From: Candidatus Poseidoniaceae archaeon
GTDB taxonomy: Archaea > Thermoplasmatota > Poseidoniia > Poseidoniales > Poseidoniaceae
Direction of reading: 5' to 3'
DNA: 64,000 bases
Assembly: GCA_049606035.1 (NCBI GenBank)
Contig: JBMYVD010000004.1
Location: 2,313-66,312 of the forward strand
Each line of letters starts with the position of its first letter. Positions within the stretch are counted from its first letter, which is position 1. Shown here in pieces: positions 2,848 through 57,372 of the stretch. The notes under the pieces were generated by a model. That model was not told the DNA's origin and did no database searches. It saw only the letters and a program-made list of their open reading frames with translations. The position numbers and the translations under genes are program-made.

Positions 2848-3480
2848 TCACTTCAGTGCATCAAGAATGTCGTTTGTGATTAAATCAATGGCTCTATCAC
2901 CGTTTATCACATGGAAGATTCCTTTAGATTCGTACCAATCTGCTAGAGGAGATGTCTGTTCATGGTATGCTTCTAGTCTACTCATCACTGTTTCTGCATT
3001 ATCGTCAGCACGTCTCTTGAATTCCTCACCACCACACGAATCGCAAATACCGTCTTTGGATGTTGGCTTGAAAGAGTCATGGTAAACTGCACCACAATCA
3101 GCACATGTGTACCTACCGCAAATCCTGTCTACAATTCTCTCATCAGGAACTTCGATTGAAATCACGTGTGAAACTGCTGTGATGTCTGCTAATGCCTCAG
3201 CCTGTGGCACAGTACGGGGAAAACCATCAAACATCACGCCGTTTTTTGCATCAGGTTCCTTGATTCTATCCTTTATGAGGTCGATTATCACTTGGTCTGG
3301 TACCAATTGTCCAGCATCCATGTATTTCTTCGCCTCTATCCCGGTTGGAGTCCCTGCAGAAACTGCAGCTCTAAGCATGTCGCCTGTGCTTACCTGAGGT
3401 AAGCCGGTTGAATCCATGATTCGCTGTGCTTGAGTCCCTTTTCCAGCCCCCGGAGGACCGAACAAAACTATGCTCTCCAT
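2848..3480 (-). CDS. adk: Adenylate kinase (long form with four-Cys zinc lid)
   Basis: P-loop MESIVLFGPPGAGKGTQ and lid CGRYTCADCG...CDSCGG. The start is set to the ATG at 3480; the track start at 3570 would overlap the upstream gene. Confidence 0.9.
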   Translation of the reverse strand: MESIVLFGPPGAGKGTQAQRIMDSTGLPQVSTGDMLRAAVSAGTPTGIEAKKYMDAGQLVPDQVIIDLIKDRIKEPDAKNGVMFDGFPRTVPQAEALADITAVSHVISIEVPDERIVDRICGRYTCADCGAVYHDSFKPTSKDGICDSCGGEEFKRRADDNAETVMSRLEAYHEQTSPLADWYESKGIFHVINGDRAIDLITNDILDALK

Positions 3481-3506
3481 GCCCCGGGCGTAGACTGCTT
3501 CTGTTT

Positions 3507-6500
3507 TCACTGTTGGCCTTGTTGGGCTAACCACTGATGGCCATAATATTGCCATTGCTCCATTGTCCAACCTGGAGGTAAACCACCCGGTGGCAAAGGC
3601 GGTCCAACTTGTGGAGCAGGTGCTTGAGGTACAGGAGGTTGAGGCGTTGGTGCTGGTGGTCTTCCTTGAGGAATAGCCACAGACGGGCGACCAGCGGGTA
3701 CTGCGCTTGGAGGCCTCCCTTGCGGCACCATTGCTGGAGCAGAAGGCGGTGGCAAGCTAGGAATAGATTTAGCCAATGCATCTGCTATCTCTTCCGCAGA
3801 AACACCGCCGCTGGCCAATGATTCCTGTCCTACTACGGAATCCATAACCGCCCTCATTCTAGCGCCGTCATCAGGAATCGAATGGGCATCAGGAGCAACC
3901 AATTCCTCTCCAGATGTGTCTCTTGGAGCAGACTTCTTGATTCTCCTAGCAATAATCGCAACACCTAGAACCAAAGCCCCAATAACTGAATAACCAACTG
4001 TTGGAGAAACAATGCCAAATAATCCACCTTGTGCTTGTGTATTCTTTACGCTTATTTCCAGCGTTGCTGTGGCTGAACCACATGACAAGGTTAGTTCTTC
4101 TATGCCTGCCTTTGTATCATCATTGGGCTCAACTTTAACCTCTGCACCTACAGATTCACCGGGTGCTAAATTTGAGATTTCTCCCATCGATAGTGATACA
4201 TCCCAATATTTGGCATCAATATTTGCAATTAGTTCTGAATCAAGTGGTACATTCCCAACGTTTCTGATTGTGATTTTTTGCATTGAGTCATCGTTTCGAT
4301 CGATACCAAGCAAAGGTCTGGACTCATCATCGTACTCTATCGAGCAAAAGGCCCCTGCTTGGACCTCGACTGCATAACTTTCGGAGATTTGTAGTGTCTC
4401 AAAACCATTATTGATAGTTACATAGATTCCAATATCAAATGTAGTTGATGTTGGCTCATTAACAGGTGCCTTGATTCCAACGATTAGTTCGCTACTTTCC
4501 CTAGGTCCCAAGATTGTTGGAGGAGCAGCAAATCCTACCTCCCATCCATCCAAGGGCAGTGAGTTTGACCATTCCAAACCGATTTGAGAATTTCCGGTAT
4601 TCTCTACCATTAATGTCGTGTAAGTGAATTCACCGTTAGGTGTAACATCGAGTGTTCCATTTGTTGGTGGTGAAATCAAAAGACCAATTTCATCCTTAAC
4701 CACGAGAGTTGTTTCATTGATAATGAAATTAGATACATCCTGACTGGTCTTTATCACCAGACGGTTCTCATCATTCCTTTCGGCGACTGGTGAGACTAGA
4801 ACTTCGAACTTAACCTCGCCCGTTTGTCCGGGAAGAATTTCAATTGTTACCTCTCTGTTATTGGTTTGAGAATCTGTGCGAACTTGAATTGTCCAAGTAG
4901 TGAGTTCTGGATTTACTCTAACGGTCAAATCCAAAGGAGCGTTACCAGTGTTTTCTATGATTAGTGATAGATTCAACCTTTCTGCCGTATCTACATTCAC
5001 ATCTCTAGCGGTGGTAGCAGGACCAACCGGAATTCCCTCATGGTCTATCAAATCAGTCGAAAACGATTCGAGTGTCTTTACCGTCAGCGTTACAGTTTCT
5101 GAAACGTTTAATGAAAGATCTGTCTCACTCGTAACGGTGCAAGTTATCGAATCTGTGGCTCCAGCCGCAGGCAAACCATCGGTTACAGGTGGGACATACA
5201 ATCTTACTTGCATGGGGAGATATTCCAAAATATCCAGTGGCTCAAAAGAGTAGGAAGAGGAATTAGAATCTCCCAACTCAACTACCCATCTGTTTTCACT
5301 AATACAATCCAAATCGTATACGGCAGGGGAATTACCAATATTCCTAACCGATATTGAAAATGCTGTATTTCCACCAGGTATAGCTTCCAAACCTGTTGTA
5401 CCGGCTGGTGCAACCTGAACATCTTTAACTTCTTCAACAACTAACTTGAGCCTAATGGTATGTTTTACAGTTGGATTATTCGAATACTTTGCAGTAACGT
5501 CCATGACATATGTTCCTGCCATAGCAAATCGCTTTGTTTGCCCTGATAGGTCTGCATCATCATCGTTCATTGTTATGTTTAGGTAAATTGAATCTCCTGA
5601 TTGTCCCATTGGTGATAAGGTGAAAGGGCCTGACAAATCTGAGGTCCTTGACCAAGTATCTTCTGGAGGGAGCAGTAAATCATCACGTATTGGATGAGGA
5701 ATTTGGACTTGAGACAACTGTAGTTTCACTGACTGCTGTCCTGTACCTTCGTGTTTGAGAACAACCGGCCAAGTGTAACCTTCAGCTACTGAAGGATTTA
5801 TTGTTTGGTTTACCATATTCACATTTTCTTGGCCGTTTTCATCCAAGGCGACCAGCCTTACACCCAAAGCGGAAACTGAAATGGTCATTTCTTTGATATT
5901 GTTGTTTACTCCGCTTAGTTCATCATTAATCTCATCAATTTGAGAGTCGACATCAACTGTTAATCTCATATCATGATCGCCAGTTGATGCAAACGAATGA
6001 TAAATCGTAATGGAATCAACCTGCCCTGCATCTAGTGATTGACGTGTCCCTTCGAATACTACTGTACCTTCAGTTAGATCTTCGAGTTTGACCTTGAATT
6101 GACCTGCATCAGAAGTTCCTTGGTTTAGCCATGAAAGTCTCAATGTGATTAAATCGTTTTGAAGAGGGGATGCAGATGACGGGAATATCGATCCATCAAA
6201 GACAATCAAATCTGCTTTCTCGTCGAGCGTGGCATCAGCAGTGACAACTAAGCCGTATGCTTGCTCGAGCCCTCCAGCGTGATTCACAGTCAACTGCCAC
6301 TTACCTGAGGGAAGAACTGAATTTGGTGAAATTTTTATCCTCTCAATATTGTTTACAGAATCATGTACGCCATTGGGAGTTGAGAATCCATTGGCGAATA
6401 CGTTTCCTTTGTACACAGTCCCATCTGGTGCTGTCAATTTCAAATCTAGGTCATTTACCAACCTAGATTCACCCTGTGGAGCGTTTGCACTGCCTGCAAC

Positions 6501-8282
6501 ATCGGTCCACGCTAATGTTATCTCAATACCGGATGTCGGATCCAAATCAAATTGGTAAAGTGTTGAAAATCCTGCATTGAGTGTTCGAGAATTGTCATGG
6601 TAAGTTGAAAGCACATTTCCGCCATATTCTGGCATTACGGAACCTGCAACAGAAACTTGCCCCCAACCTTCCTCTGAATTCGGAATATTTGGTGTGCCTA
6701 GGTCAACAGCACCGTTAACCGTGGCTGCTTTCAGAAGTGCTGCAGTAGGATTAGTGATTCCAACATCTTCTCTAATGAATTCACGAATTAGGGAAACTGA
6801 GCCCCCTGCCACGGCGGTAGCCTGACTGGAACCGGATAATGACATGTACATGTCATTGCCATTTGCGTGGGTTCCTGAACCACAACTTGTCCCTACTGGA
6901 ATTGCAGCTTCTTCAGCCCTTCCGGAACAAATAGCAACACCTGGGGCGACGATGTCAGGCTTGACCCTACCATCTAAAGAGGGACCAAGCGATGAAAAAT
7001 TAGCTACGCTTCCACTTGGATTGGTAGTAGAAGCACCTACTGATAGGACGTTTTTGGCAGTAGATGGGGCCATTACACTGGAAGAATTTTGAGAGGGGTC
7101 ATCTCCAGCAGAAAAGATTGGAAGGAATTCAGGATTATCGTTTACGAATACGTCAACAGACCTTGAGTCGGCCGTGTATGCACCGTAGTTTCCATTTAAT
7201 CCCCAAGCATTGACGGCTACTCTAGAACCTTCTTGTTCAGCATGATTTAGCATATCATAAATCGAACCGATTCTTCCGAAAATTCCTGTCGGGTTATGCT
7301 CCAAAGCATAAGCAACGATGTATGCGCCTGGAGCGATTCCTTCAGCACTTGAATCTCCAGTTCCATCCCCTGCCAGTGTTATTGCTACGTGTGTACCATG
7401 ACCACCGTTTGTGTCAGAGGGATTAGGGTCTAGCCCATATTGGGTGTAAACGCCGGCAATCCTGCCAAAAATATCGGGGTGGTCTTGGTCGATTCCAGTA
7501 TCTGTGAATGTGATTTTCTCACCAGAACCATCGAGGCCCAAGGATGAGTTTTTGAGTTCAGAAATTCCTACGATTGCTCCTGCTACGGCATTTGTTAACC
7601 TGATTTCATGTGCTTTTTCTGCCCAAATTATTCGACCATCTCTTGCTAGTGACTCTAGGTTGGGATATCCTTTAACTTCGCACAAATGCAATCCACACCA
7701 TGCTTCATCAGCCCCCATCGAAACTAAGTCTAGCGCTAGAAGTTCAAGTGAAGAAGCCTTCAAATCGGGAGCAGGAATTATTGAGATGAAATCTGTATTT
7801 TTATCCACCGATTCAGAAACTCTCCAACCAGGCATCATAGCCCCCGCCCATCTCACAGATTCATCGCTCTGAAGGTTAGCGAGGTCGTCAGGATGAGAGA
7901 GTCTAACTAGCCAATTTGATGGACCTAGATTGTCGAGTATAAAGAGATTGTACTCATCAACAATATCGTAGAGTAATGTTCCAGTGTGGTGCTTGAGTTG
8001 GATAATAGCCATCCCCGTCGTACGGTAATCATTAGAATCATCAAGGCGTGATTTAGGCAGATCATCTGTCAGTGGATCGAATGATCCAGATTCTAAATGT
8101 ATGTTATAATCAAGAGATTTTAGTGAAGATTGAGAGGTGTCAATCGGTTGTATTGCGTGCCAATTTGCGGCAGCAATCTCACGCTCGCTGACCTCTACAT
8201 CGATTGGATTGTCACTGGCTGTTGACAATGGTGCAAGGAGGAGTATTGCGAGGATGATTACTGTCCTTCGCTGTACCAACAT
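3507..8282 (-). CDS. Giant membrane-tethered subtilisin-like (S8) serine protease with CARDB-like repeats and a cytoplasmic Pro-rich tail
   Basis: Signal peptide MLVQRRTVIILAILLLAPLSTASD. S8 triad motifs FTDTGIDQDHPD, GGHGTHVA and LSGSSQATAVAGG lie at about nt 6753-7520. A P-domain-like stretch LAWTDVAGS..LVNDLDLKL follows, then repeated N(T/Q/V)GN.. beta-sandwich modules. A C-terminal TM (VIGALVLGVAIIARRIKK) precedes a 146-aa tail. Confidence 0.9.
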   Translation of the reverse strand: MLVQRRTVIILAILLLAPLSTASDNPIDVEVSEREIAAANWHAIQPIDTSQSSLKSLDYNIHLESGSFDPLTDDLPKSRLDDSNDYRTTGMAIIQLKHHTGTLLYDIVDEYNLFILDNLGPSNWLVRLSHPDDLANLQSDESVRWAGAMMPGWRVSESVDKNTDFISIIPAPDLKASSLELLALDLVSMGADEAWCGLHLCEVKGYPNLESLARDGRIIWAEKAHEIRLTNAVAGAIVGISELKNSSLGLDGSGEKITFTDTGIDQDHPDIFGRIAGVYTQYGLDPNPSDTNGGHGTHVAITLAGDGTGDSSAEGIAPGAYIVAYALEHNPTGIFGRIGSIYDMLNHAEQEGSRVAVNAWGLNGNYGAYTADSRSVDVFVNDNPEFLPIFSAGDDPSQNSSSVMAPSTAKNVLSVGASTTNPSGSVANFSSLGPSLDGRVKPDIVAPGVAICSGRAEEAAIPVGTSCGSGTHANGNDMYMSLSGSSQATAVAGGSVSLIREFIREDVGITNPTAALLKAATVNGAVDLGTPNIPNSEEGWGQVSVAGSVMPEYGGNVLSTYHDNSRTLNAGFSTLYQFDLDPTSGIEITLAWTDVAGSANAPQGESRLVNDLDLKLTAPDGTVYKGNVFANGFSTPNGVHDSVNNIERIKISPNSVLPSGKWQLTVNHAGGLEQAYGLVVTADATLDEKADLIVFDGSIFPSSASPLQNDLITLRLSWLNQGTSDAGQFKVKLEDLTEGTVVFEGTRQSLDAGQVDSITIYHSFASTGDHDMRLTVDVDSQIDEINDELSGVNNNIKEMTISVSALGVRLVALDENGQENVNMVNQTINPSVAEGYTWPVVLKHEGTGQQSVKLQLSQVQIPHPIRDDLLLPPEDTWSRTSDLSGPFTLSPMGQSGDSIYLNITMNDDDADLSGQTKRFAMAGTYVMDVTAKYSNNPTVKHTIRLKLVVEEVKDVQVAPAGTTGLEAIPGGNTAFSISVRNIGNSPAVYDLDCISENRWVVELGDSNSSSYSFEPLDILEYLPMQVRLYVPPVTDGLPAAGATDSITCTVTSETDLSLNVSETVTLTVKTLESFSTDLIDHEGIPVGPATTARDVNVDTAERLNLSLIIENTGNAPLDLTVRVNPELTTWTIQVRTDSQTNNREVTIEILPGQTGEVKFEVLVSPVAERNDENRLVIKTSQDVSNFIINETTLVVKDEIGLLISPPTNGTLDVTPNGEFTYTTLMVENTGNSQIGLEWSNSLPLDGWEVGFAAPPTILGPRESSELIVGIKAPVNEPTSTTFDIGIYVTINNGFETLQISESYAVEVQAGAFCSIEYDDESRPLLGIDRNDDSMQKITIRNVGNVPLDSELIANIDAKYWDVSLSMGEISNLAPGESVGAEVKVEPNDDTKAGIEELTLSCGSATATLEISVKNTQAQGGLFGIVSPTVGYSVIGALVLGVAIIARRIKKSAPRDTSGEELVAPDAHSIPDDGARMRAVMDSVVGQESLASGGVSAEEIADALAKSIPSLPPPSAPAMVPQGRPPSAVPAGRPSVAIPQGRPPAPTPQPPVPQAPAPQVGPPLPPGGLPPGWTMEQWQYYGHQWLAQQGQQ

Positions 8283-8325
8283 AAGTATCCGGAATGCGCA
8301 TGTGTACTTGAATACAAGCCCCTGC

Positions 8326-8343
8326 TGAGCCCTTCAGGGCTCA
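8326..8343 (-). terminator. GC-rich hairpin whose stem includes the gap stop codon (TGAGCCC-TGAA-GGGCTCA on the minus strand)
   Basis: Perfect 7-bp stem with a 4-nt loop. It sits between the gap stop (8341-8343) and the next gene's start (8282). Confidence 0.4.
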
Positions 8344-9375
8344 TTCAAACATCGATGCAATTGCTGCATCTGTTTTCTGAACAGATACACGCCAATCTGA
8401 TTCTGTACCCATCAGCGCACGTATTGCATCTATGTTCTCTGGAATTACATCGGACTCTTGATGGATTGCCTGGAAATAATACAGGTTGTTCCCAACCAAC
8501 TTGACTCCATCTTCCCATACGAAAATCTCGTGCAGGTCGCCCCATGTTCTACCCATGTCACGAGCGAATTCCATGACTTCTGCTGTTGTTGTAATTCCAG
8601 TCTCGGCGCCGTTCATAATTACAACACGTGGACAACTTGACCACATTTCGAGAACACTTTCGGTTGTCAACCCATGACCCTCTGGTAGAGTTGCAACAAT
8701 TGAGTGGACGTGCATAATTGTTGTAGGAACTGCCACCGCTAGAGAATTAATCTTGATTTCAGGTTTTACTGTCATTACGTCCGGACCGTGATGGCTTGGG
8801 ACCTTCAGAACAGGTTTGATTGCGTTGATAGGTCCTTTCTTTGAATCTCCGGGGTCTGCTGCTCTGCGTATCATTGTACACTCAACAGATAACTCCCCAC
8901 AATGCTCGTACAAAGGAACAAGTGTTCTGGATAAACCAGTCGTATTACATGAAACAACTCTCGTCCCTTCCACATTCATGTTTGCTGCATGGTTGGCACA
9001 CGAGGTGTAGGACATACCTGTCATTGCGTGTTTTTCGCCTCCTTGGAAAATCCACTTTATTCCTGCAGATTGATACTTTGCCTTATTTTCTGCACCAAGT
9101 TTTCCAGGTGAACAGTCGATGACAATATCTGCTACTGAGAGCAAATCTGAAAGACCACCATGACATTCGTATCCAGCACTGGCAAATGCTGCAATTTTTT
9201 CTTCGTCGTCAAAGGTACAATACAACGGGTATCCTTTTCTTACGGCTAAATCACAACCAAAGGCTGGGCGAGTTTTTGTTACTCCAATGATTTCCATGTC
9301 ATCTTGGCAAGCGACTGCATCAGCAACCCGCTTTCCAATTGTGCCGTATCCGTTAATTGCAACCTTGATGGTCAT
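8341..9375 (-). CDS. gap: Glyceraldehyde-3-phosphate dehydrogenase, archaeal type II
   Basis: MTIKVAINGYGTIGKRVADAV Rossmann start and catalytic VSCNTTGL. The 344-aa length is typical of the archaeal class. Confidence 0.9.
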   Translation of the reverse strand: MTIKVAINGYGTIGKRVADAVACQDDMEIIGVTKTRPAFGCDLAVRKGYPLYCTFDDEEKIAAFASAGYECHGGLSDLLSVADIVIDCSPGKLGAENKAKYQSAGIKWIFQGGEKHAMTGMSYTSCANHAANMNVEGTRVVSCNTTGLSRTLVPLYEHCGELSVECTMIRRAADPGDSKKGPINAIKPVLKVPSHHGPDVMTVKPEIKINSLAVAVPTTIMHVHSIVATLPEGHGLTTESVLEMWSSCPRVVIMNGAETGITTTAEVMEFARDMGRTWGDLHEIFVWEDGVKLVGNNLYYFQAIHQESDVIPENIDAIRALMGTESDWRVSVQKTDAAIASMFE

Positions 9376-13598: not shown

Positions 13599-15572
13599 TC
13601 ACAGCTCGTTATCTAGACGCTTTCTTGCGAAAAGGACTGCGCCCAATGTTGCAAGAATTGCTGTTAGTCCTAGGAAGCCAGGTGTATTATTGTCTTCCTT
13701 GTCATCCTTGTCCTCATCGACCACTGCTGGTTCTGCTCCACCGTCGCCGACTATTACCTTACCAAACATCTCTACACCGATGTGTGGTTCACATGCGTAG
13801 TAGAATGTGGTGTCTTCGGTAAAGGTGTGGTGGAAATCTACTGTCTTTGCAGCAGCACCGGAATATACACCGTTTTCCACGTATGTGGTTGACTTCAATC
13901 CTGCAACTTCTTTCACGTTGTGTGCCATAGATTCATCTGTCCACTTCCAGCAAACTGTTTCACCAACTGCGATTGTTGTGGATGCTGGAGTGAATCCGTA
14001 TCCATCAGAGGTGATTCCAATTGTTGCGGCGCAGACAACCTCTGGTTCTTCTGGTTCAGTTGGCTCATCTGCTGGTGGCAAGATTACCTTGTCAATAACG
14101 TGGATTACACCATTGCTTGCTGGAACGTCAGCAAGCACTACAGTTGCTCCCTCCGCTCCAACGGTTACCACTCCTTCAGCAACAGTGACGGTGAGTTCAT
14201 CACCGTTTGCTGCTGTGACGGTGTTTGCACCGTCTGCGAGGTCAGTGGATGCGATTTCTCCCGCAACGACGTGGTATAGTAAGATGTCAGCAAGTGCTGC
14301 GATCTCTTCTTCAGTATCGTAATCTGATAGGTTGATACCAGCTGCTGCGAATGCCTCGTCGGTTGGTGCAAAGACGGTGTAGTTGTCGTTCCCAGACAAT
14401 GTGTCAACTAGTCCTGCAACACCTAGAGCTGCTACTAGGGATGTGTGGATTGAAGTAGCAGCCGCAGTTTGTGGAATCTTGACTGCAGCGGTCCATGTGT
14501 AAGCCCCACATACTGCTTCGCTTACTTCAGAAATTTGGTGTGTCACGGTATTGTAACAACCAGTGTAGTTTTGGCCGTTCATCTCAGTGTTGTTTAGGTA
14601 CATGTATCCTTCACAAGTTGCTTGGTCTGCACCAGGAACGATTGTGTGAGTTTCAGTATTGTAACAAATCTCAGGTTCTGCTGGCATCAGTACCTTATCG
14701 ATCACATGTATTACACCGTTGCTAGCAACAACGTCTGCTTGTGTTACTAATGCATCGTTTACAATTACACCACCCGGTGTAACACCAACTCTAACCTGTT
14801 GTCGGTTCAGCATGGTTACAAATTGACCATCACTTAGGTCACCGGACAGCACAGCGCCAATGGTGACGTGATAAGAGAGAATGTTACTTAGAACAGAAAT
14901 GCCATCCTCATCTGTAAAGTCAGAGAGGTTTATTCCTGCGTCGATGAATGCTTGGTCAGTTGGTGCAAATATTGTGTATGGCCCGTCATCAGATAGAGGA
15001 TATAGTAGGCCTGCTTGAATGATTGCGTCAACCAAGACATCGTGCACACCAGTGCTAGATGCAATTGTTGGAATATCACCAGGGCCGTCTTCAGGAGGCA
15101 GTAGAACCTTGTCAATTACGTGGATAACCCCGTTGCTTGATACAACGTCAGCTGTTGTAACTGTAGCGTCGTTGATAGTGACATTGTCACCGACTCCGAT
15201 GGTAACATTGTCACCGTTCAGAGTCTCTACGCTCATACCGTCTGTTAGAGCAGAGGATAGGACCTCGCCGGAAATGACGTGGTAGGTTAGGATATCTACC
15301 AATGTTTGGTTTGCTTCATCTGTGTTGAAGTTTGCCAAATCGATTCCTGCGTCTGTAAACGCTTGGTCAGTTGGCGCAAACACAGTGAACGGGCCATTGC
15401 CAGATAGTGTGTCTACAAGACCAGCGTGGGCCAGTGCAGCGACCAAGGAATTGTGATTCCCTGTTTCAGATGCGTTTGTTGGTATGTCTTTGGTTTCATC
15501 TGCTGTTACTGAAAGCGGTATTGCGGACAATAGCAACAGGGCAATTAGTGCGGTTGAGAGTCTTCTCTGCAT
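13599..15572 (-). CDS. Surface protein: three fasciclin (FAS1) domains, a Cys-pair linker, a type-1 copper cupredoxin domain and a PGF-CTERM anchor signal
   Basis: Three repeats of FT(V/I)FAPTD(Q/E)AF...SNGVIHVIDKV(L/I)(L/M)P. Cupredoxin ligand pattern AHN...YYACEPHIGVEM (C-X2-H-X4-M). C-terminus TPGFLGLTAILATLGAVLFARKRL. Start set to the ATG at 15572 (MQRRLSTALIALLLLSAIPLSVTA); a TATATA box lies about 26 nt upstream of it. Confidence 0.85.
   Translation of the reverse strand: MQRRLSTALIALLLLSAIPLSVTADETKDIPTNASETGNHNSLVAALAHAGLVDTLSGNGPFTVFAPTDQAFTDAGIDLANFNTDEANQTLVDILTYHVISGEVLSSALTDGMSVETLNGDNVTIGVGDNVTINDATVTTADVVSSNGVIHVIDKVLLPPEDGPGDIPTIASSTGVHDVLVDAIIQAGLLYPLSDDGPYTIFAPTDQAFIDAGINLSDFTDEDGISVLSNILSYHVTIGAVLSGDLSDGQFVTMLNRQQVRVGVTPGGVIVNDALVTQADVVASNGVIHVIDKVLMPAEPEICYNTETHTIVPGADQATCEGYMYLNNTEMNGQNYTGCYNTVTHQISEVSEAVCGAYTWTAAVKIPQTAAATSIHTSLVAALGVAGLVDTLSGNDNYTVFAPTDEAFAAAGINLSDYDTEEEIAALADILLYHVVAGEIASTDLADGANTVTAANGDELTVTVAEGVVTVGAEGATVVLADVPASNGVIHVIDKVILPPADEPTEPEEPEVVCAATIGITSDGYGFTPASTTIAVGETVCWKWTDESMAHNVKEVAGLKSTTYVENGVYSGAAAKTVDFHHTFTEDTTFYYACEPHIGVEMFGKVIVGDGGAEPAVVDEDKDDKEDNNTPGFLGLTAILATLGAVLFARKRLDNEL
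13602..13685 (-). other. PGF-CTERM archaeosortase-type sorting signal (coding)
   Basis: An acidic linker (DEDKDDKEDNN) precedes TPGF, a hydrophobic helix and RKRLDNEL at the extreme C-terminus. Confidence 0.75.
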
Positions 15573-15592
15573 TGCTCCGCAACGAATTGCGT

Positions 15593-15603
15593 TAGTATAT
15601 ACC
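15593..15603 (-). promoter_or_regulatory. TATA-box-like element for the FAS1-cupredoxin gene
   Basis: The minus strand reads GGTATATACTA, centred about 26 nt upstream of the ATG at 15572. This would fit a leaderless archaeal transcript. Confidence 0.35.
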
Positions 15604-15656
15604 ATTTTGTTTCGATACGCATTCTAAAACCGTGACACTTAGCATAAATGCGCTCC

Positions 15657-15685: not shown

Positions 15686-18058
15686 ATGCGCCGGTGGTTG
15701 GTTGTAGTTCTCGTGGCACTTATGCTACCTACAATACCAGGTAGCGCAGATCAAGATCCGTTCAACTTCTACATTGAAGATGAGATAGTTGCACATCCAG
15801 GCGAGACTGTTCAACTTCGTATTGCATGGCAGAACATTGTAGGGACTGCAAGACATTTTTCAGTCTCAGTCAATAGCACTGGGGTTAACTTGACCGTGAG
15901 TGACCTACCAACAGATTGGACTAGAGTAGCATCAGGTAGACTCGGAGAGATGCTAATCAATGTAACAGTAGCACCTGACTCAAATTTCGAAACACAATCA
16001 TTCAGTTTGGATTTTCTCTGTCAAGAAGTCGAAAATTGGAGTCTTACACACAACGTAGATGTCCTAATCTCCAAATGGTCGAACATTAGGTTCGGTTCTA
16101 ACGATGGATCGGAGTTCTATGTTTTACAGGATGTAAGAACCGGTTTCGCAATCAATGTAAGCAATCAAGCAGACTACAATGATACCGTAAAATTGAGATT
16201 CAACACTCAAACAAACTGGGAGTATGGGTTTGATGATGATTTGAATAATGACGGCGAATTATTGATCGACTTGCAATCTGGCGACTATGAGTTCATCAAC
16301 TTCTACATACAAACCCCTCCTATCGTTAATGGTGGACCATTAGCAGGAACTGGCCCACAATTTTCACTAGAAGCAGTCTCAAATTTGGATAGGAGGGTAA
16401 GTTCATGGAACTTTAGCCTTAGAATGGAGACCTATCACAATATGACTATAGATGTTGTTGAAGACAACTTAACCATCGAACCTGGGGACAACGAGCGGCT
16501 TGAGGTTATTGTAAGGAATAATGGCAACACTGCCACGTACCTCGATGCAGGTTTACTCTATGGAGATTCCAGAGAAGACCGTTTTGAAATCGACAATTGG
16601 ACAGTTGCAATATTCAATGCCTTTGAATTTCAACCTCTTGAACCAAATGAATCTAGAGCTATAGAAATAGGATTCAACGCTCCTAATATCAATCTTGGTT
16701 CCGTTGATTTGGAACTTGATATTATGCCGCAGTCATTCCCGCAAAGATCGACTTCTGTGGAAATTTCATCATCGATAGATTGGCAAAAAAATGGTAGTTT
16801 AAGCAAAATTGGAGACTCATGTGCAGAGGTTGAATGGAACCAAACCTGTCAACAATTAATTCAAATTGAGAACACAGGGAACTTCTTTCAAGACTACAAG
16901 TTAGAAATTCTTGATTATAGTGGAATGAATTTCGAAATAACACAAGAAACAATTGGACTTTCAAGAAGCCAAAAGAGCATAGAAATCCCGTTGAACATCA
17001 CCCCGTTTGAAAATGCAGAAGCATTCACCACTGGCTCTGCTGAATTAGTCCTAAGATTAACTGATGGTACGTTAGTAGATTCATTGGACATTTCGTCCAA
17101 GACTGCACCAAGAGTGTTTTGGGTATGGGAAGATTCCGCTACATCGGTTAGTAACGGAAGACTAGAAATGGCAATAACAATGAGGAATGATGGCAATACC
17201 GCTGATGGTTTGGTGGTTAGAATGACTTCTTCATACTTCACAGAGATGAGTTTCATCCCTCCCAACAACGCTATCGTTGAGGATGGTTCTAAGAACATAC
17301 GTTCTTTCGAAATCATCGATATTGACAAAGGGGCTAATTTTACATTCAGAGCCTGGGCAAAGATACCTGATAACCAAAATTCAGCCGATGATTTCTACAT
17401 TAACATAACAGCGCATAGTCGCCTTGCTGATGACAAGCCATTCAGATTCACTGCCAATACATCATTCGACGCAGCCATATCAAACAACGATAATCAGGAA
17501 GGCATCGTAGACTCAATTGGTGATATTGTTTCGACGATTTTTGCTGTCATCTGGGCGTGGAAATGGATTGCTATTGCTACTGTAGCGAGTGGGTTGATGA
17601 TAAACAAATCAATCAGAGACCGTAGAGCAAGGCTTGCGGATATGGAATTGATGAATTCACAACAAAATGGAGAGCAAAAACCGGATGATTGGATGGCAGA
17701 ATTCGCTACCAAAAAACAGCCAACCCCAGAAATTGCTCAATCACCTCAAATTCCTTCTGCTGTGTTTACTGGTATGTTCCAAGCGGTTGGAGGTGGACAA
17801 AAGCCAGTTGCAGAACCTGTTGATTCAAGGCTGGTTGGTGCTGCAAGTACGGTATTAGACCATCATGATACAGTTGCTACAAAATCAAAACTAGATGATT
17901 TGGTAGAGAATCTAGCAACAGGAAATGTCAGTACCCCCCACATGGCAAATGTTGCATTACCTAACAACATTATTCCAGTAACAGAAAGAACTGTTCCAAA
18001 GCCTAAGGCAAATGTTTCAGTTCCAACAATGCTCGATTTGGACGACCTCGATTTGTGA
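15686..18058 (+). CDS. Hypothetical surface protein with CARDB-like beta-sandwich repeats, one C-terminal TM and a 170-aa cytoplasmic tail
   Basis: Signal peptide MRRWLVVVLVALMLPTIPGSA. Repeats VIVRNNGNTATYLD, IENTGNFFQDY and MRNDGNTADGLVV. TM segment FAVIWAWKWIAIATVASGLMI. The tail ends in LDLDDLDL. Confidence 0.7.
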   Translation: MRRWLVVVLVALMLPTIPGSADQDPFNFYIEDEIVAHPGETVQLRIAWQNIVGTARHFSVSVNSTGVNLTVSDLPTDWTRVASGRLGEMLINVTVAPDSNFETQSFSLDFLCQEVENWSLTHNVDVLISKWSNIRFGSNDGSEFYVLQDVRTGFAINVSNQADYNDTVKLRFNTQTNWEYGFDDDLNNDGELLIDLQSGDYEFINFYIQTPPIVNGGPLAGTGPQFSLEAVSNLDRRVSSWNFSLRMETYHNMTIDVVEDNLTIEPGDNERLEVIVRNNGNTATYLDAGLLYGDSREDRFEIDNWTVAIFNAFEFQPLEPNESRAIEIGFNAPNINLGSVDLELDIMPQSFPQRSTSVEISSSIDWQKNGSLSKIGDSCAEVEWNQTCQQLIQIENTGNFFQDYKLEILDYSGMNFEITQETIGLSRSQKSIEIPLNITPFENAEAFTTGSAELVLRLTDGTLVDSLDISSKTAPRVFWVWEDSATSVSNGRLEMAITMRNDGNTADGLVVRMTSSYFTEMSFIPPNNAIVEDGSKNIRSFEIIDIDKGANFTFRAWAKIPDNQNSADDFYINITAHSRLADDKPFRFTANTSFDAAISNNDNQEGIVDSIGDIVSTIFAVIWAWKWIAIATVASGLMINKSIRDRRARLADMELMNSQQNGEQKPDDWMAEFATKKQPTPEIAQSPQIPSAVFTGMFQAVGGGQKPVAEPVDSRLVGAASTVLDHHDTVATKSKLDDLVENLATGNVSTPHMANVALPNNIIPVTERTVPKPKANVSVPTMLDLDDLDL

Positions 18059-33152: not shown

Positions 33153-33491
33153 ATGCAGGACGATGATATGGCTCTAGAAGTAGTCGTCCCAGTAGAGGAA
33201 AAAGACGTCGATTCTATTGCATTAGGAAAGACAATTTGGAATGAGATTACGGCTGGAGTTGGAATATGGGGGGCATTTAGACCAGTCTTTGCAGTAGCAT
33301 TATCCCTTGTTCCATTTTTGTTCCTAGGCCAACATTTCAATCGAAAACATCGAAGAGGGTTTGATTGGTTTTTGCTTCAGATACCGCTAGCATTCACGCT
33401 AGTACTTTGGGTACTGCTTTACGTCTGGTCGGTGTTTGATGCTTGGAGAGATGCTAGCGTCAACGTCGCAAACAGTCATGACCAAAGTTGA
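33153..33491 (+). CDS. Small hypothetical membrane protein
   Basis: 112-aa version starting MQDDDMALE.. with two hydrophobic helices. The upstream part of the track ORF overlaps the pcp-nudix gene on the other strand. Confidence 0.4.
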   Translation: MQDDDMALEVVVPVEEKDVDSIALGKTIWNEITAGVGIWGAFRPVFAVALSLVPFLFLGQHFNRKHRRGFDWFLLQIPLAFTLVLWVLLYVWSVFDAWRDASVNVANSHDQS

Positions 33492-34234
33492 TCACTGCAC
33501 TTTAGATCACCACTAGCCATACCCTCGAGGTCAGCTTTGTCATCATCATCGAACTCATCAGGGATGCTTCCCGAAAAGATATTCCCGATACTAGTGCTTT
33601 CAATAGCCCAGTACATCACAGAGTCATCATTACTTGAGTGACCTGGATGGTCGGGGTCTTCGTGGTCGATTGGAGAAGTGTATACCAAATTGACCAAACC
33701 CAGCAAGTGACCCGCCTCATGAACAGTGACTGCTCTTTCTATTTCCTCTGCAGATGGACGTCCCAAGAAATTTTCAGAATCTTCAATTGAATCCTTGAAC
33801 ACTGCAACAGTAGATGCATCTACTGCAACACCTAACACAGAATCATCATTGTAGGTACCCTTAGGGAATAAGAAATACCAGTTTAGGGTATCAGAGCCCA
33901 TTGCATCATCGCCATGTTTCCATCTGGCATCGCGCACGTCGTTTGCGCTCCATGAGTTGTCTTCCTTGAAATCAACCTCTCTAGCGACGATTTGAATTCC
34001 GTTTGGTTTGTCACAAACCTGATTTAATCTTGTTTTGAGCAGGTCCATCGCCACTGGGTCATATCCGTTTTCAAACAGGAAATGGATTTTCATCCCCTCA
34101 AATCGATCATCTTGAAGGCAAGCCAATGCTAGTCCACCTGGGATTCCACGCTTTTCTTCAAACAATTCTTCTGTTCCGAAACAACCTGTGAGGCTGCTAG
34201 AAAATAGTACAAAGATAACAAAGACTACTCGCAT
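33476..34234 (-). CDS. Secreted zinc metalloprotease (HExxH, metzincin-like) with a lipobox
   Basis: MRVVFVIFVLFSSSLTGC carries an L-T-G-C lipobox. HEAGHLLGL...HEDPDHPGHSSNDDSVMYW gives the zinc site and a possible Met-turn. Confidence 0.7.
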   Translation of the reverse strand: MRVVFVIFVLFSSSLTGCFGTEELFEEKRGIPGGLALACLQDDRFEGMKIHFLFENGYDPVAMDLLKTRLNQVCDKPNGIQIVAREVDFKEDNSWSANDVRDARWKHGDDAMGSDTLNWYFLFPKGTYNDDSVLGVAVDASTVAVFKDSIEDSENFLGRPSAEEIERAVTVHEAGHLLGLVNLVYTSPIDHEDPDHPGHSSNDDSVMYWAIESTSIGNIFSGSIPDEFDDDDKADLEGMASGDLKCSDQLWS

Positions 34235-34242
34235 TTTCTCAC

Positions 34243-34665
34243 CTAAAAATCATCTGGAATTTCTGTTGGGCTAAACAATTGTCCAGGACCTGCTGCCTGA
34301 GATAATTGGTTCCTTGCAAGGTGTTCCCATGAGCGCATTACTCCCAAAGCATCACTTACCAACATTTGTTCTTCTTCCAAAGTTACCCTTATCAATGTAT
34401 CAAGAATATCCATTCTATCCCTATCAACCAATGAAAGTGCCTTCTCTAAGTCAAAACTTGCACTACTCTCTACTGGCTGAGAGTCAAGTGGCCAAGGCTC
34501 AGCCAAGTTGTCAGGCAGTTCATTCGTGTGCTCTTTTAGTTGTGATAACAAACGATTTGTCCACCTTGAAATCACCAAACTTGTCTCCAAAATTGGCATG
34601 TTTAGTTGGTTGATTAGATTCACCAACCTCTCTTGCAATGTGACCATTGAATCTGCGCCACTCAT
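34243..34665 (-). CDS. Hypothetical small acidic cytoplasmic protein
   Basis: 140-aa ORF packed 17 nt after the giant gene's stop and 8 nt before the metalloprotease start. It has no signal peptide and no recognised motif. Confidence 0.55.
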   Translation of the reverse strand: MSGADSMVTLQERLVNLINQLNMPILETSLVISRWTNRLLSQLKEHTNELPDNLAEPWPLDSQPVESSASFDLEKALSLVDRDRMDILDTLIRVTLEEEQMLVSDALGVMRSWEHLARNQLSQAAGPGQLFSPTEIPDDF

Positions 34666-46882: not shown

Positions 46883-47920
46883 ATGAGGTCACAGCGCAAG
46901 TCCAATAGTGACCTCGCAGTCAGTGAAGTCATCGGTGTCGTGATGCTTCTGGCGATGGTTATCACAATGATGGGAGGGGTGTTTGTATTCCTCACACCAT
47001 ACGTCAATGATTTTCAAGACAATACCGCATGGTCAAACGCAAATGGAATTGCTGAAAGGCTAGATGGTAGGATTGATGTCGTTGCAGGAGCAAGTGCTGA
47101 CACCGGACTTAGAACTACAATTCCCCTAACTATGAGCTCAATTTCTCCTATCATTAGTGCAGAAGTGTGGACTGTATCAGCAGATTTGACTGCAGGAGAA
47201 ATTGTAACAGTCGAGTACATTAATCAAACTACATTCGGTATTACCTCGGAAAATGAAACAGCCGACCGTGCAATAATTTGGACTGAAGGTGGGGAAGTCG
47301 AAATAACATTCAATGAAACTTACGAAGAGGTTTTGATAACCCATAATTTGAGTCTTGCAGACATTTATATCGTAACCATATTCGATGGAGAAAACGAGAT
47401 TCACAAGCATGCAAAGATACCAATTTCAGGATTAATGGTAAAGACCAAAGTTCAGACAGGTGAACATTCAATTGGACTACTGAACGATGCTCGATACGAC
47501 AAATTCTCTGATGAAACCTGGAGTATAACTTCAGCCCCTGACATGAATATAGAAGAATTATTCGACGGCACAATGAGGGCTAGTTTGTCTCTGAGAGACG
47601 TAGATACTGCAGGAGCGATTCCAGACGGCAGAAACGCTGTATTTGATATCCGTTCAGAAGGGCCAATTACTCTCTTTAGTGGTGATGCATGGAACTTCAG
47701 ATTTACATTTGAATCATCATTAGGACCAACAGTCGCCCCACAGATGACTGAAGGTTGGTTAACCGACTACAACCTCCACAGAGCGTCTAACACTCTAGAC
47801 CAGCATAGAGGTATCAGCCCGTGGTTAAGGGCAAGCGGAATCGATGGTCTGACAATAGACCACGGCAATTCTGTAATAGATCTTGAAATCGAATTGCAAT
47901 TGGTGGAGGTTAGCAGATGA
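46883..47920 (+). CDS. Archaeal type IV pilin-like protein (class III signal peptide, DUF1628/Pilin_N-like N-terminus) with a large globular domain
   Basis: MRSQRKSNSDLAVSEVIGVVMLLAMVITMMGGVFVFL matches the archaeal pilin N-terminal pattern (..R(A/G)VSPVIGVVLLVAIT..). Its stop overlaps the next start as ATGA. Confidence 0.7.
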   Translation: MRSQRKSNSDLAVSEVIGVVMLLAMVITMMGGVFVFLTPYVNDFQDNTAWSNANGIAERLDGRIDVVAGASADTGLRTTIPLTMSSISPIISAEVWTVSADLTAGEIVTVEYINQTTFGITSENETADRAIIWTEGGEVEITFNETYEEVLITHNLSLADIYIVTIFDGENEIHKHAKIPISGLMVKTKVQTGEHSIGLLNDARYDKFSDETWSITSAPDMNIEELFDGTMRASLSLRDVDTAGAIPDGRNAVFDIRSEGPITLFSGDAWNFRFTFESSLGPTVAPQMTEGWLTDYNLHRASNTLDQHRGISPWLRASGIDGLTIDHGNSVIDLEIELQLVEVSR

Positions 47921-57307: not shown

Positions 57308-57372
57308 AATACACCCTCGGCATGTTGTCCAAATACTGGACCGCCTTAACACATTGGGATAGATTTCAATTG

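What the first reader, a model, noticed from the sequence alone, without database searches (positions are those of the whole stretch)
3510..3947. Cytoplasmic Pro-rich tail ending in LPPGWTMEQWQYYGHQWL, shared with an unrelated giant protein
After the TM helix and a basic stop-transfer (ARRIKK), this subtilase has an acidic stretch. Three tandem 9-mers follow (VPQGRPPSA, VPAGRPSVA, IPQGRPPAP), and the last 24 residues read LPPGWTMEQWQYYGHQWLAQQGQQ. The 1,790-aa giant at 34683-40055 has a different ectodomain but the same layout and ends LPEGWTMEQWNHYGHQYLQNSK. This is not a sortase- or archaeosortase-type signal, because those place the TM at the extreme C-terminus with only a few basic residues after it. 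It looks instead like a docking peptide for an unknown cytoplasmic partner involved in sorting, clustering, anchoring or signalling. I know of no described family with this motif.
Basis: partly seen in the sequence, partly recalled or inferred. Interest (0 to 1): 0.7.

Follow-up and report, generated by a model that had tools for sequence, protein, structure and literature searches.

The report
Shared cytoplasmic tail tag, MGII archaea
Many unrelated large surface proteins of the abundant marine archaea Poseidoniales (Marine Group II) end inside the cell with the same roughly 25-residue peptide; no database or paper searched describes it, and it probably links these proteins to one unknown internal partner.

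Summary
The 1,591-aa subtilase (3507-8282, minus strand) and the 1,790-aa giant (34683-40055, minus strand) are both type I membrane proteins. Their cytoplasmic tails end in the same module, PP[LVI]PxxGLPxGW[TS]MEQWx[HYW]YGx[QE][WY]L.

- **Frequency:** an exhaustive HMMER scan of 1.84 billion representative proteins found 633 clusters, and about 92% of the 150 listed carry the module at the extreme C-terminus.
- **Position:** it lies 34-147 residues beyond a single C-terminal TM helix, on at least 9-10 unrelated ectodomain families (S8 subtilases, PKD/CARDB, TSP3, arylsulfotransferase-like, and families with no Pfam match).
- **Level of selection:** synonymous sites vary freely, so selection acts on the peptide.
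- **Structure:** AlphaFold2 predicts a confident terminal helix after a disordered, acidic, Pro-rich linker.
- **Prior description:** Pfam, NCBIfam, PDB and the literature held here contain nothing like it.
- **Class:** it is not a PGF-CTERM or sortase-type signal.

My best reading is a lineage-specific docking mini-domain for an unidentified cytoplasmic partner. That function is inferred, not shown. No linked partner gene was found.

The parts
3507..8282 (-). Gene for a 1,591-aa type I membrane S8 subtilase that carries the tail (stop codon 3507-3509)
   Evidence: ORF list. Pfam Peptidase_S8 E = 5e-40, CARDB and Ig-like domains. The gapdh-subtilase-adk gene order is conserved in Poseidoniales loci.
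8214..8282 (-). N-terminal signal-peptide-like segment (MLVQRRTVIILAILLLAPLSTAS)
   Evidence: Hydropathy scan. This is a heuristic; no dedicated signal-peptide predictor was available.
6660..7529 (-). Peptidase_S8 catalytic domain (aa 252-541)
   Evidence: Pfam match.
3948..4004 (-). Single C-terminal transmembrane anchor (aa 1427-1445)
   Evidence: Kyte-Doolittle 19-mer average of 1.98. AlphaFold2 predicts a helix over residues 6-23 of the tail model.
3933..3947 (-). Basic stop-transfer cluster RRIKK on the cytoplasmic side
   Evidence: Sequence. Of 118 related tails, 94 have at least 2 Lys/Arg within 12 residues after the TM.
3750..3812 (-). Motif specific to the subtilase family, SGGVSAEEIADALAKSIPSLP, predicted as a short helix at moderate confidence
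   Evidence: Conserved in orthologous tails. Present in 9 of 19 members of ectodomain class 2. AlphaFold2 predicts a helix over tail residues 70-80 with pLDDT about 69.
3648..3728 (-). Three degenerate 9-residue Pro-rich repeats ([VI]PxGRPxxx)
   Evidence: Sequence. The repeat number varies among orthologues. There is no DNA-level tandem repeat. AlphaFold2 pLDDT is about 50, consistent with disorder.
3528..3602 (-). Core conserved module PPLPPGGLPPGWTMEQWQYYGHQWL
   Evidence: Position-specific conservation in 212 proteins and 123-125 genomic instances. HMMER scan gives 633 clusters. AlphaFold2 predicts a helix over MEQW...WLAQQ with pLDDT about 90.
3510..3527 (-). Short variable polar C-terminal end (AQQGQQ)
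   Evidence: The number of residues between the conserved YG and the stop codon is 5-8 in 105 of 125 instances.
34683..40055 (-). Gene for the 1,790-aa type I membrane giant with no recognisable ectodomain family but the same tail
   Evidence: ORF list. No Pfam or NCBIfam family. An orthologue in L077 has the same tail.
34932..35000 (-). C-terminal transmembrane anchor of the giant (aa 1686-1708)
   Evidence: Hydropathy scan.
34917..34931 (-). Basic stop-transfer cluster RRIRR
   Evidence: Sequence.
34698..34772 (-). Core conserved module PPLPPTGLPEGWTMEQWNHYGHQYL
   Evidence: It is 20/25 residues identical to the subtilase copy but only 52/75 nucleotides identical.
34686..34697 (-). Short variable C-terminal end (QNSK)
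   Evidence: Sequence.

Best explanation
The tail is a modular cytoplasmic appendage specific to Poseidoniales (Marine Group II archaea).

**Shown.**
- Each carrier is a Sec-type, type I membrane protein. It has an N-terminal signal peptide, an extracellular ectodomain and one C-terminal TM helix.
- After the TM comes a disordered, acidic linker rich in Pro, Ala and Ser, 34-147 residues long.
- Next comes a module of about 25 residues, PP[LVI]PxxGLPxGW[TS]MEQWx[HYW]YGx[QE][WY]L. It usually ends 1-4 residues before the C-terminus.
- The module is kept nearly invariant at the amino-acid level. This holds on at least 9-10 unrelated ectodomain families and in both Poseidoniales families.

**Inferred.**
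- The module forms a small autonomous knob: a Pro-rich lead-in followed by an aromatic-faced helix.
- The flexible linker lets the knob reach one conserved cytoplasmic or membrane-face partner and dock to it.
- A defined subset of surface proteases and adhesins would thereby be tied to a common internal machine, for anchoring, clustering, positioning or turnover.
- The partner is unknown and is not encoded next to the carrier genes.
For: **Recurrence and position.**
- The profile search of 5.8 billion proteins gave 71 hits, all carrying the module.
- The exhaustive HMMER scan of 1.84 billion representatives gave 633 clusters at E <= 1e-3 and 427 at E <= 1e-10. In about 138 of the 150 listed, the match ends within 10 residues of the C-terminus.
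- The inspected exceptions carry a further extension ending LLDDLD[LF] or are frameshift fragments.

**Taxonomic restriction.**
- The single locus labelled 'Yoonia' is a mis-binned Poseidoniales contig.
- Loci named MGIIa and MGIIb both carry the module.

**Architecture.**
- Of 126 instances, 118 have a TM 34-147 residues upstream (median 77). The other 8 are truncated or fragmentary.
- Of 58 complete ORFs, 56 have a signal-peptide-like N-terminus.

**Modularity.** There are 9-10 unrelated ectodomain clusters: S8+CARDB, PKD/CARDB, TSP3, arylsulfotransferase (ASST)+TSP3, VWA7-Ig/CARDB and several with no Pfam match.

**Peptide-level selection.**
- Positions not fixed by the search pattern are nearly invariant: P-7, G-4 and P-2 in 123/123, L-3 in 120/123, and [WY]+13 in 120/123.
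- All synonymous codons are used at the invariant Pro, Gly, Thr and Leu positions.
- Tails group by orthologous family, not by genome, so concerted evolution does not explain the similarity.
- The gapdh-subtilase-adk gene order is conserved in both families.

**Structure.** AlphaFold2 on the 45-aa tail end gives a helix over residues 28-43 with pLDDT about 90. The non-regular Pro-rich lead-in scores 76-89. In the whole-tail model only the TM and this helix stand out, and the rest scores about 50-60.

**Linker.** Composition is P 14%, A 12%, S 9%, E 9%, with a median net charge of -5.
Against: - No partner was identified.
- No neighbouring gene family is shared across ectodomain classes.
- I could not run complex prediction.
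- Nearly every residue of the module is conserved, so there is no clear binding face separate from a folding core. The conservation moment is only 0.18.
- Topology rests on hydropathy and charge heuristics, not a dedicated predictor. Ten of 118 tails have no Lys/Arg right after the TM.
- Poseidoniales are uncultured, so there is no experimental information at all.
Confidence: 0.5

Rival explanations
1. Homotypic clustering module. The aromatic helix, with or without the Pro-rich lead-in, self-associates. This would resemble the dimerising polyproline-helix/alpha-helix mini-proteins of the pancreatic-polypeptide type. Different surface proteins bearing it would then be pulled into common patches or a sub-membrane lattice without a separate partner.
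For: - One identical module sits on at least 9-10 different surface protein families in the same cell.
- The helix has a conserved aromatic face of W, Y and W/Y.
- No partner gene is linked to the carriers.
- Flexible linkers of variable length would allow lateral contacts.
Against: - No oligomer prediction or experiment was possible.
- The invariant polar residues T, E and Q, and the invariant GLPxG turn, are more than a simple zipper would need.
- The similarity to the PP-fold comes from memory and was not tested with coordinates. Foldseek found nothing.
Confidence: 0.15
2. Interfacial membrane anchor. The Trp/Tyr-rich amphipathic helix lies in the cytoplasmic membrane interface and pins the end of the tail back to the bilayer, for example to sense or shape the membrane.
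For: - Trp and Tyr are typical interfacial residues.
- The predicted helix has W6, Y9, [WY]13, M3 and L14 within one 140-degree arc.
- The module is always on membrane proteins.
Against: - The helix and its flanks are neutral to acidic (ends such as LDSQKEE, LAQQGQQ, LEQNGP) and lack the basic residues usual in membrane-targeting helices.
- Lipid binding does not explain the absolute invariance of E, Q, T and the preceding PP[LVI]PxxGLPxG.
- A membrane-return anchor would not need a linker of 34-147 residues.
Confidence: 0.1
3. A new kind of C-terminal sorting or processing signal. The module would be recognised once, during or after membrane insertion, by a dedicated enzyme or targeting factor and might then be removed. 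This resembles the logic of PGF-CTERM/archaeosortase but acts from the cytoplasmic side.
For: - Only a subset of surface proteins carries it. Others in the same window have short basic tails, a PGF-CTERM-like end, or other tails. That is the 'choice of anchor' pattern typical of sorting tags.
- Its position is extremely C-terminal.
Against: - It fails the tripartite architecture of all known sortase, exosortase and archaeosortase signals.
- No candidate processing enzyme is linked to the carriers.
- One family carries 33-69 further residues after the module.
Confidence: 0.1
4. Nascent-chain element. The conserved Pro/Gly/Trp-rich peptide would act inside the ribosome exit tunnel to pause translation near the end of these very long secretory ORFs. 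This would be like the SecM, MifM or TnaC arrest peptides and would couple termination to translocation or insertion.
For: - Conservation is at the amino-acid level, within the last 30 or so residues. The distance to the stop codon is tight: 5-8 residues after YG in 105 of 125 instances.
- The module contains PPxP and PxG, which are slow to translate (established knowledge of polyproline stalling).
- The shortest TM-to-motif distance is 34 residues, so the TM would already have left the tunnel.
Against: - There is no conserved downstream gene to regulate.
- The TM-to-motif distance varies fourfold.
- One family has 33-69 residues after the motif.
- AlphaFold2 predicts a well-formed helix typical of a folded element.
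- Arrest peptides are not documented in archaea (my own knowledge).
Confidence: 0.07
5. Artefact or trivial cause: a chance low-complexity match, recent gene conversion between paralogues, or a conserved DNA or RNA element at the 3' ends of genes.
For: The flanking region is Pro-rich and of low complexity.
Against: - Zero matches are expected by chance in the window, and 2 are observed.
- The exhaustive scan found 633 clusters.
- The two window copies are 20/25 identical as protein but only 52/75 as DNA. All synonymous codons are used across 125 instances.
- Tails group with their orthologous family across genomes.
Confidence: 0.01

Closest known systems
PGF-CTERM / archaeosortase signals, and bacterial LPXTG-sortase and PEP-CTERM-exosortase signals
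   Same: A short tag at the C-terminus is shared by otherwise unrelated secreted surface proteins of one lineage. It is present on only a subset of them, the 'choice of anchor' logic. The same window also encodes a protein with a PGF-CTERM-like end (13599..15605).
   Different: Those signals are tripartite: signature motif, then TM helix, then a few basic residues at the very end. The motif is processed at the membrane (my own knowledge of the Haft et al. description). Here the order is TM, basic cluster, a linker of 34-147 residues, then the motif, all on the cytoplasmic side. There is no NCBIfam or Pfam match.
Cytoplasmic tails of apicomplexan TRAP/MIC2-family adhesins
   Same: Both are type I membrane adhesins with diverse ectodomains, including thrombospondin-type repeats. 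They share an acidic cytoplasmic tail with a critical tryptophan near the C-terminus. In TRAP this tail links the adhesin to an intracellular machine; aldolase binding needs the Trp and the acidic residues (PMC3448169 abstract). The tails here are acidic, with median net charge -5, and end in a Trp-rich module.
   Different: They are not homologous and belong to a different domain of life. The module here is much longer and nearly invariant, and is preceded by a Pro-rich segment. The partner is unknown, and there is no evidence of any motor or of motility.
[quoted passage not shown]
   Same: An acidic, Pro-rich region is combined with a short Gly-containing aromatic motif in proteins that organise adhesins at the cytoplasmic face of a wall-less cell. 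The EAGR box has a specific role in motility (PMC12395765).
   Different: EAGR boxes sit in cytoskeletal proteins, not at the ends of type I surface proteins. No Pfam family of any kind matched the tails at E <= 10. This is a resemblance in composition only.
WW domain (its N-terminal 'LPxGW' signature)
   Same: The stretch GLP[PE]GW is identical to the start of many WW domains. The only PDB sequence hit was to the Salvador WW domains.
   Different: That hit is not significant (E = 7.3, 10 bits). The Trp spacing is 5 and 12 residues instead of 20-22. AlphaFold2 predicts a helix, not a three-stranded sheet. There is no Pfam WW match.
PP-fold and Trp-cage mini-proteins (polyproline-II segment packed on an aromatic alpha-helix)
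   Same: The size is about 25-35 residues. A conserved Pro-rich segment is followed by a turn and a helix with aromatic residues on one face.
   Different: This is purely a structural analogy from memory. The conserved residues of the lead-in do not fall on a single polyproline-II face.

Membership tests
PGF-CTERM / archaeosortase-type (also LPXTG, PEP-CTERM) C-terminal sorting signal | The signature motif lies immediately N-terminal to the TM helix | tested here: not met
   The conserved module lies 34-147 residues C-terminal to the TM in 118 of 118 instances that have a TM.
PGF-CTERM / archaeosortase-type (also LPXTG, PEP-CTERM) C-terminal sorting signal | The TM helix is at the extreme C-terminus, followed by only a short basic cluster | tested here: not met
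   The window tails run 146 residues (subtilase) and 82 residues (giant) beyond the TM.
PGF-CTERM / archaeosortase-type (also LPXTG, PEP-CTERM) C-terminal sorting signal | Match to the curated HMMs for these signals | tested here: not met
   NCBIfam gives 0 families on either tail at E <= 1. Pfam gives 0 families on the subtilase tail and only one non-significant, unrelated match (Jiraiya, E = 0.079) on the giant's tail at E <= 1. It gives none on the short tail ends at E <= 10.
WW domain | Two tryptophans 20-22 residues apart in a domain of about 35-40 residues | tested here: not met
   The Trp residues are at module positions +1 and +6, with a W/Y at +13.
WW domain | Three-stranded antiparallel beta-sheet | tested here: not met
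   AlphaFold2 predicts an alpha-helix over residues 28-43 and no strands.
WW domain | Significant profile match | tested here: not met
   No Pfam hit. The PDB profile hit to the Salvador WW domains has E = 7.3 and covers only GLPPGW.
GYF domain / GYF_2 | Significant Pfam profile match | tested here: not met
   No Pfam family on the short tail ends at E <= 10.
PP-fold (pancreatic hormone) mini-protein | Polyproline-II helix packed against an amphipathic alpha-helix | tested here: inconclusive
   The helix is predicted with pLDDT about 90 and the Pro-rich lead-in scores 76-89 without regular structure.
PP-fold (pancreatic hormone) mini-protein | Sequence-family membership (Pfam Hormone_3) | tested here: not met
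   No Pfam hit.
Mycoplasma EAGR box | Profile match to the EAGR box family | tested here: not met
   No Pfam family of any kind on the three short tail ends at E <= 10. That Pfam holds an EAGR_box model is from memory.
TRAP/MIC2-type adhesin tail (functional class, not a homology family) | Type I membrane adhesin with an acidic cytoplasmic tail and a Trp near the C-terminus | tested here: met
   Signal peptide plus a single TM. Linker net charge has a median of -5. Invariant Trp residues lie near the C-terminus.
TRAP/MIC2-type adhesin tail (functional class, not a homology family) | The tail binds a cytoplasmic bridging protein that connects to a motor or cytoskeleton | not testable with these tools
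   No complex prediction or experiment was available. No linked partner gene was found.

The most novel reading that the evidence does not exclude
Poseidoniales have an adhesion-receptor-style system, like those of eukaryotes or Mycoplasma, that has not been described in archaea. A dozen or so families of large surface proteases and adhesins would be physically coupled, through one invariant cytoplasmic knob on a flexible acidic, Pro-rich tether, to a single sub-membrane scaffold, cytoskeletal element or motor. Further tail motifs (ANSMYGG..FQQP, the C-terminal LLDDLD[LF], and family-specific helices) would act as additional docking sites. The system would organise the whole cell surface of one of the ocean's most abundant archaeal groups.
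Probability: 0.3. Interest if true: 0.85.

Novelty: new variant of a known kind. Interest (0 to 1): 0.65.

Why it matters
**The organisms.** Poseidoniales are the most abundant planktonic archaea in surface oceans and remain uncultured (PMC6461757). Almost nothing is known about their cell envelope or cell biology.

**What the module implies.** A near-invariant cytoplasmic module sits on at least 9-10 families of large surface proteases and adhesins. It points to an unknown intracellular component that handles or holds these proteins.

**Practical uses.**
- It gives a sequence tag, PP[LVI]PxxGLPxGW[TS]MEQWxxYGxx[WY]L, that marks a defined surface-protein set in any MGII genome.
- It gives a 30-residue bait for partner discovery by complex prediction or pull-down.
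- It serves as a clade marker, and it already exposed one mis-binned contig.

**Wider significance.** If a partner exists, this would be a rare prokaryotic case of diverse type I surface proteins sharing a cytoplasmic-tail docking motif. That arrangement is otherwise familiar from eukaryotic adhesion receptors.

Tried and rejected
1. **First profile query.** It was too short for the search for homologous proteins and was repeated with 65 columns. That tool returned only short proteins (34-113 aa). These turned out to be mostly C-terminal fragments or mis-called pieces of large genes. So 'free small proteins with the motif' is rejected. For example, P0040 lies in a 151-aa stop-to-stop span with TSP3-like sequence upstream.
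2. **Linked partner gene.** ORFs from all 118 loci were clustered. Every recurrent neighbour family is specific to one ectodomain class, which is ordinary synteny. The 140-aa and 252-aa ORFs downstream of the giant are conserved only in its one orthologous locus.
3. **Viral carriers or mimicry.** There were 0 matches in IMG/VR.
4. **Known-family searches.** Searches of Pfam (E up to 10), NCBIfam, PDB by sequence profile, and Foldseek against PDB were all negative or non-significant.
5. **Literature.** The exact string GWTMEQW and several keyword combinations found nothing on this motif. Rinke et al. discuss adhesion, thrombospondin and flotillin genes but not protein C-termini.
6. **DNA-level tandem repeat under the 9-mers.** None was found.
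7. **A third shared class.** I tested whether the third giant's tail (HPGWIWDAQTNQWVADPNY) is another shared class. It is conserved only among orthologues of that one family.
8. **PP-fold idea.** I could not verify it because model coordinates are not exposed.
Full report
**1. The observation**

ORF 3507..8282 (minus strand) encodes a 1,591-aa protein.
- It has a signal-peptide-like N-terminus, a Peptidase_S8 domain (E = 5e-40) and CARDB/Ig-like domains.
- It has one hydrophobic anchor (aa 1427-1445), then RRIKK and an acidic stretch.
- Next come three degenerate 9-mers ([VI]PxGRPxxx).
- The end reads ...PPLPPGGLPPGWTMEQWQYYGHQWLAQQGQQ.

ORF 34683..40055 (minus strand) encodes a 1,790-aa protein with no recognisable domain.
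- It has the same plan: TM aa 1686-1708, then RRIRR.
- It ends ...PPLPPTGLPEGWTMEQWNHYGHQYLQNSK.

The back-translated core matches twice in the window, against 0.00 expected from shuffles. The finding's coordinates are exactly the post-TM tail. The 9-mers are peptide-level repeats only, since Tandem Repeats Finder finds nothing in the DNA. The adenylate kinase ORF that seems to overlap the tail is over-extended. Its likely start is the ATG at 3480.

**2. How widespread, and where**

*Protein searches*
- A profile of the two tails searched against 5.8 billion proteins returned 71 hits. Every one carried the module.
- An exhaustive HMMER scan of 1.84 billion 50%-identity representatives found 633 clusters at E <= 1e-3 and 427 at E <= 1e-10.
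- In about 138 of the 150 listed, the match ends within 10 residues of the C-terminus.
- The inspected exceptions are of two kinds. Some belong to one family with a further extension ending LLDDLD[LF]. The rest are frameshifted fragments.

*Genome scan*
- All are Poseidoniales or unnamed marine euryarchaeote MAGs, including the original MG-II chromosome CM001443.1.
- The one locus labelled 'Yoonia sp.' shares syntenic neighbours with Poseidoniales loci, so it is a mis-binned contig.
- Loci named Poseidoniaceae (MGIIa) and Thalassarchaeaceae (MGIIb) both carry the module. They share at least three ectodomain classes, so the module predates the split of the two families.
- IMG/VR viral contigs gave no match.

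**3. Anatomy across 126 genomic instances**

- 118 instances have a hydrophobic 19-mer 34-147 residues upstream (median 77). The other 8 are 5'-truncated or fragmentary.
- The stop codon follows the conserved YG by 5-8 residues in 105 of 125 instances. Thirteen instances carry 33-69 further residues.
- Of 58 complete ORFs (about 359-1,793 aa), 56 begin with a signal-peptide-like segment, and 50 have no other hydrophobic 19-mer. These are therefore type I (N-out, C-in) proteins.
- 94 of 118 tails have at least 2 Lys/Arg within 12 residues after the TM.
- Positions that the search pattern did not fix are nevertheless almost invariant: P-10 in 116/123, P-9 in 108, [LVI]-8 in 122, P-7 in 123, G-4 in 123, L-3 in 120, P-2 in 123, [WY]+13 in 120 and L+14 in 106.
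- A less biased set of 212 HMMER hits gives the same picture, with rare variants such as GWSMEQW, GW-T-[LIVE]-EQW and GWTM[DQ]QW.
- The consensus is PP[LVI]PxxGLPxGW[TS]MEQWx[HYW]YGx[QE][WY][LIV].

**4. The module is separable from the protein it sits on**

- Clustering the ectodomains gives 9 unrelated clusters. Clustering the membrane-proximal 300 residues gives 10.
- Pfam identifies several:
  - S8 subtilase with CARDB;
  - PKD with CARDB;
  - TSP3 repeats;
  - arylsulfotransferase-like with TSP3;
  - VWA7-Ig with CARDB.
- Three cluster representatives have no Pfam domain, and neither does the window's own giant.
- Not every anchored surface protein has the module. In this window, 58811..63907 has a TM followed by an 11-residue basic tail, 13599..15605 ends PGF-CTERM-like, and 53012..57352 and 15686..18058 have other long tails.
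- The module therefore labels a subset of surface proteins.

**5. What is under selection**

- All four codons are used at each invariant Pro, Gly and Thr position, and all six at each Leu. The two window copies are 20/25 identical as protein but 52/75 as DNA. This excludes a DNA or RNA element and recent gene conversion.
- Tail ends group with their orthologous family across genomes. Examples are AWYGEDYLKNQ in the TSP3 family and VAYGHIWWEQNGP in one subtilase subfamily. This argues against concerted evolution within a genome.
- The tailed subtilase sits in a conserved gapdh-subtilase-adk arrangement in both families.
- The module is therefore old, vertically inherited, and held by purifying selection on the peptide in each paralogue.

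**6. Structure**

- AlphaFold2 on the last 45 residues with 71 aligned tails gives mean pLDDT 78.6. A helix covers residues 28-43 (MEQW..YG..WLAQQ) at about 90. The preceding Pro-rich segment is non-regular but scores 76-89.
- On the whole 165-residue tail, only the TM helix and this terminal helix stand out. The family-specific VSAEEIADALAKS segment is a weaker helix, and the rest scores about 50-60, consistent with disorder.
- The linker is 14% Pro, 12% Ala, 9% Ser and 9% Glu, with a median net charge of -5.
- On a helical wheel, T2, M3, W6, Y9, G10, [WY]13 and L14 fall within one 140-degree arc. The variable positions lie opposite.
- I suspect a small polyproline-plus-helix knob, like a PP-fold or Trp-cage. 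I could not check packing, because coordinates are not exposed and Foldseek found no PDB match.

**7. Most likely mechanism**

*Shown*
- The tail is a cytoplasmic, C-terminal, clade-specific module of about 25 residues.
- It sits on a flexible acidic tether.
- It is carried by many unrelated type I surface proteins.

*Inferred*
- It docks these proteins to one conserved cytoplasmic or membrane-face component. My confidence is about 0.5.
- The reasoning is that near-absolute invariance of polar and aromatic residues, across paralogues that share nothing else, is the signature of a single common binding partner.
- The long variable linker fits a 'reach and dock' arrangement.

*Partner*
- It is not encoded nearby.
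- Flotillin, noted as widespread in the order (PMC6461757), is one speculative candidate among several.

**8. Rivals**

- Homotypic clustering: confidence 0.15.
- Interfacial membrane helix: 0.10. It is weakened by the acidic or neutral charge and the invariant polar residues.
- A new kind of sorting or processing signal: 0.10.
- A nascent-chain pausing element: 0.07. The tight spacing to the stop codon and the PPxP content favour it. The lack of any conserved downstream gene, the fourfold range in TM distance, and the family with 33-69 trailing residues count against it.
- Chance or gene conversion: refuted.

**9. Comparison with known systems**

- It is not a PGF-CTERM, LPXTG or PEP-CTERM signal. 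The defining order of motif, TM and basic tail is reversed and stretched, and no curated HMM matches.
- It is not a WW domain. Only GLPPGW resembles one (E = 7.3), the Trp spacing is wrong, and a helix is predicted rather than a sheet.
- In function it most resembles two systems, by analogy and not by homology:
  - The acidic, Trp-bearing cytoplasmic tails of apicomplexan TRAP-family adhesins link adhesins to an internal machine (PMC3448169).
  - The acidic Pro-rich regions and EAGR-box motifs of Mycoplasma terminal-organelle proteins have a similar composition (PMC12395765).

**10. Novelty and verdict**

- Pfam, NCBIfam (June 2026), PDB and the searchable literature contain nothing like it.
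- I rate it a new variant of a known kind. The known kind is a shared C-terminal tag or cytoplasmic-tail docking motif on surface proteins. What is new is the sequence family, a topology not seen in prokaryotic sorting tags, and the lineage.
- Interest is 0.65. This is a robust, order-wide and undescribed feature of a very abundant uncultured archaeal group, and it offers a concrete bait for finding an unknown cellular partner. Its function is not yet established.

Noticed in passing
window 53012..57352 (minus strand); tail motifs at 53150-53191 and 53030-53086: A third giant (1,446 aa, Big_7 domain) has the same plan of TM, acidic stretch and Pro-rich tail. It ends with different conserved motifs, EDPYAWAKARAAEQ and HPGWIWDAQTNQWVADPNY. 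The second looks like a natural tryptophan-zipper hairpin. The 15 database hits all look like orthologues of this one family, so this tail is family-specific and not a shared tag.
   Followed up: partly
window 15686..18058 (plus strand), C-terminus at 18029-18055; also L043, L047, L059, L072, L079, L081, L108, L109, L114, L115, L120: A second terminal motif, an acidic LLDDLD[LF] at the very C-terminus, follows the GWTMEQW module after about 33-69 residues in the PKD/CARDB family of roughly 1,250 aa. It also ends the window's 790-aa TM protein, which lacks the GWTMEQW module. It looks like an independent tail module.
   Followed up: partly
related loci such as L005, L006, L016, L017, L035, L038; protein P0074: Another conserved linear motif, [AT]NSMYGG..[ED][IL]F[QE]QP, lies between the TM and the GWTMEQW module in two different ectodomain classes (17 of 24 and 7 of 22 members). 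A motif GYEDxLxATYGAVAxAP is present in 12 of 22 members of one of those classes. The tails look like mosaics of short motifs.
   Followed up: partly
L117 (CAXRJJ010000022.1): A contig deposited in a 'Yoonia sp.' (alphaproteobacterial) MAG carries the motif. It also shares two syntenic neighbour genes with Poseidoniales loci, so it is almost certainly a mis-binned archaeal contig.
   Followed up: yes
window 2848..9375; loci L010, L033, L040, L086, L087, L106, L110 and others: The tailed subtilase sits between GAPDH and adenylate kinase genes, and this gene order is conserved across both Poseidoniales families. The mechanical adk ORF (TTG at 3570) overlaps the subtilase tail, but the real start is probably the ATG at 3480 (MESIVLFGPPGAGKG).
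   Followed up: partly
window 13599..15605 (minus strand): This protein has three fasciclin domains and a halocyanin/plastocyanin-like copper domain. It ends NTPGFLGLTAILATLGAVLFARKRLDNEL, which looks like a PGF-CTERM archaeosortase signal by eye. NCBIfam gave no match to a CTERM model at E <= 0.01.
   Followed up: partly
window 46883..52958: A cluster of three archaeal type IV pilin-like genes (Pilin_N, DUF7289, DUF7266) lies next to an 841-aa STAND NTPase with TPR repeats. These sit between the giant surface-protein genes.
   Followed up: no
window 33476..34665 (minus strand); L077 3060-4246: Directly downstream of the 1,790-aa giant are a 140-aa ORF with no family match and a 252-aa lipoprotein-like ORF with an HEAGH metalloprotease-like motif. 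Both are conserved (89% and 81% identity) in the single orthologous locus available.
   Followed up: partly
L001 (ENA contig, coverage 0.2) and L002: Many of the short motif-bearing 'proteins' in the public protein collections are artefacts of frameshifts or of internal start calls inside large genes. For example, P0040 and P0037 overlap or directly follow larger upstream ORFs.
   Followed up: yes
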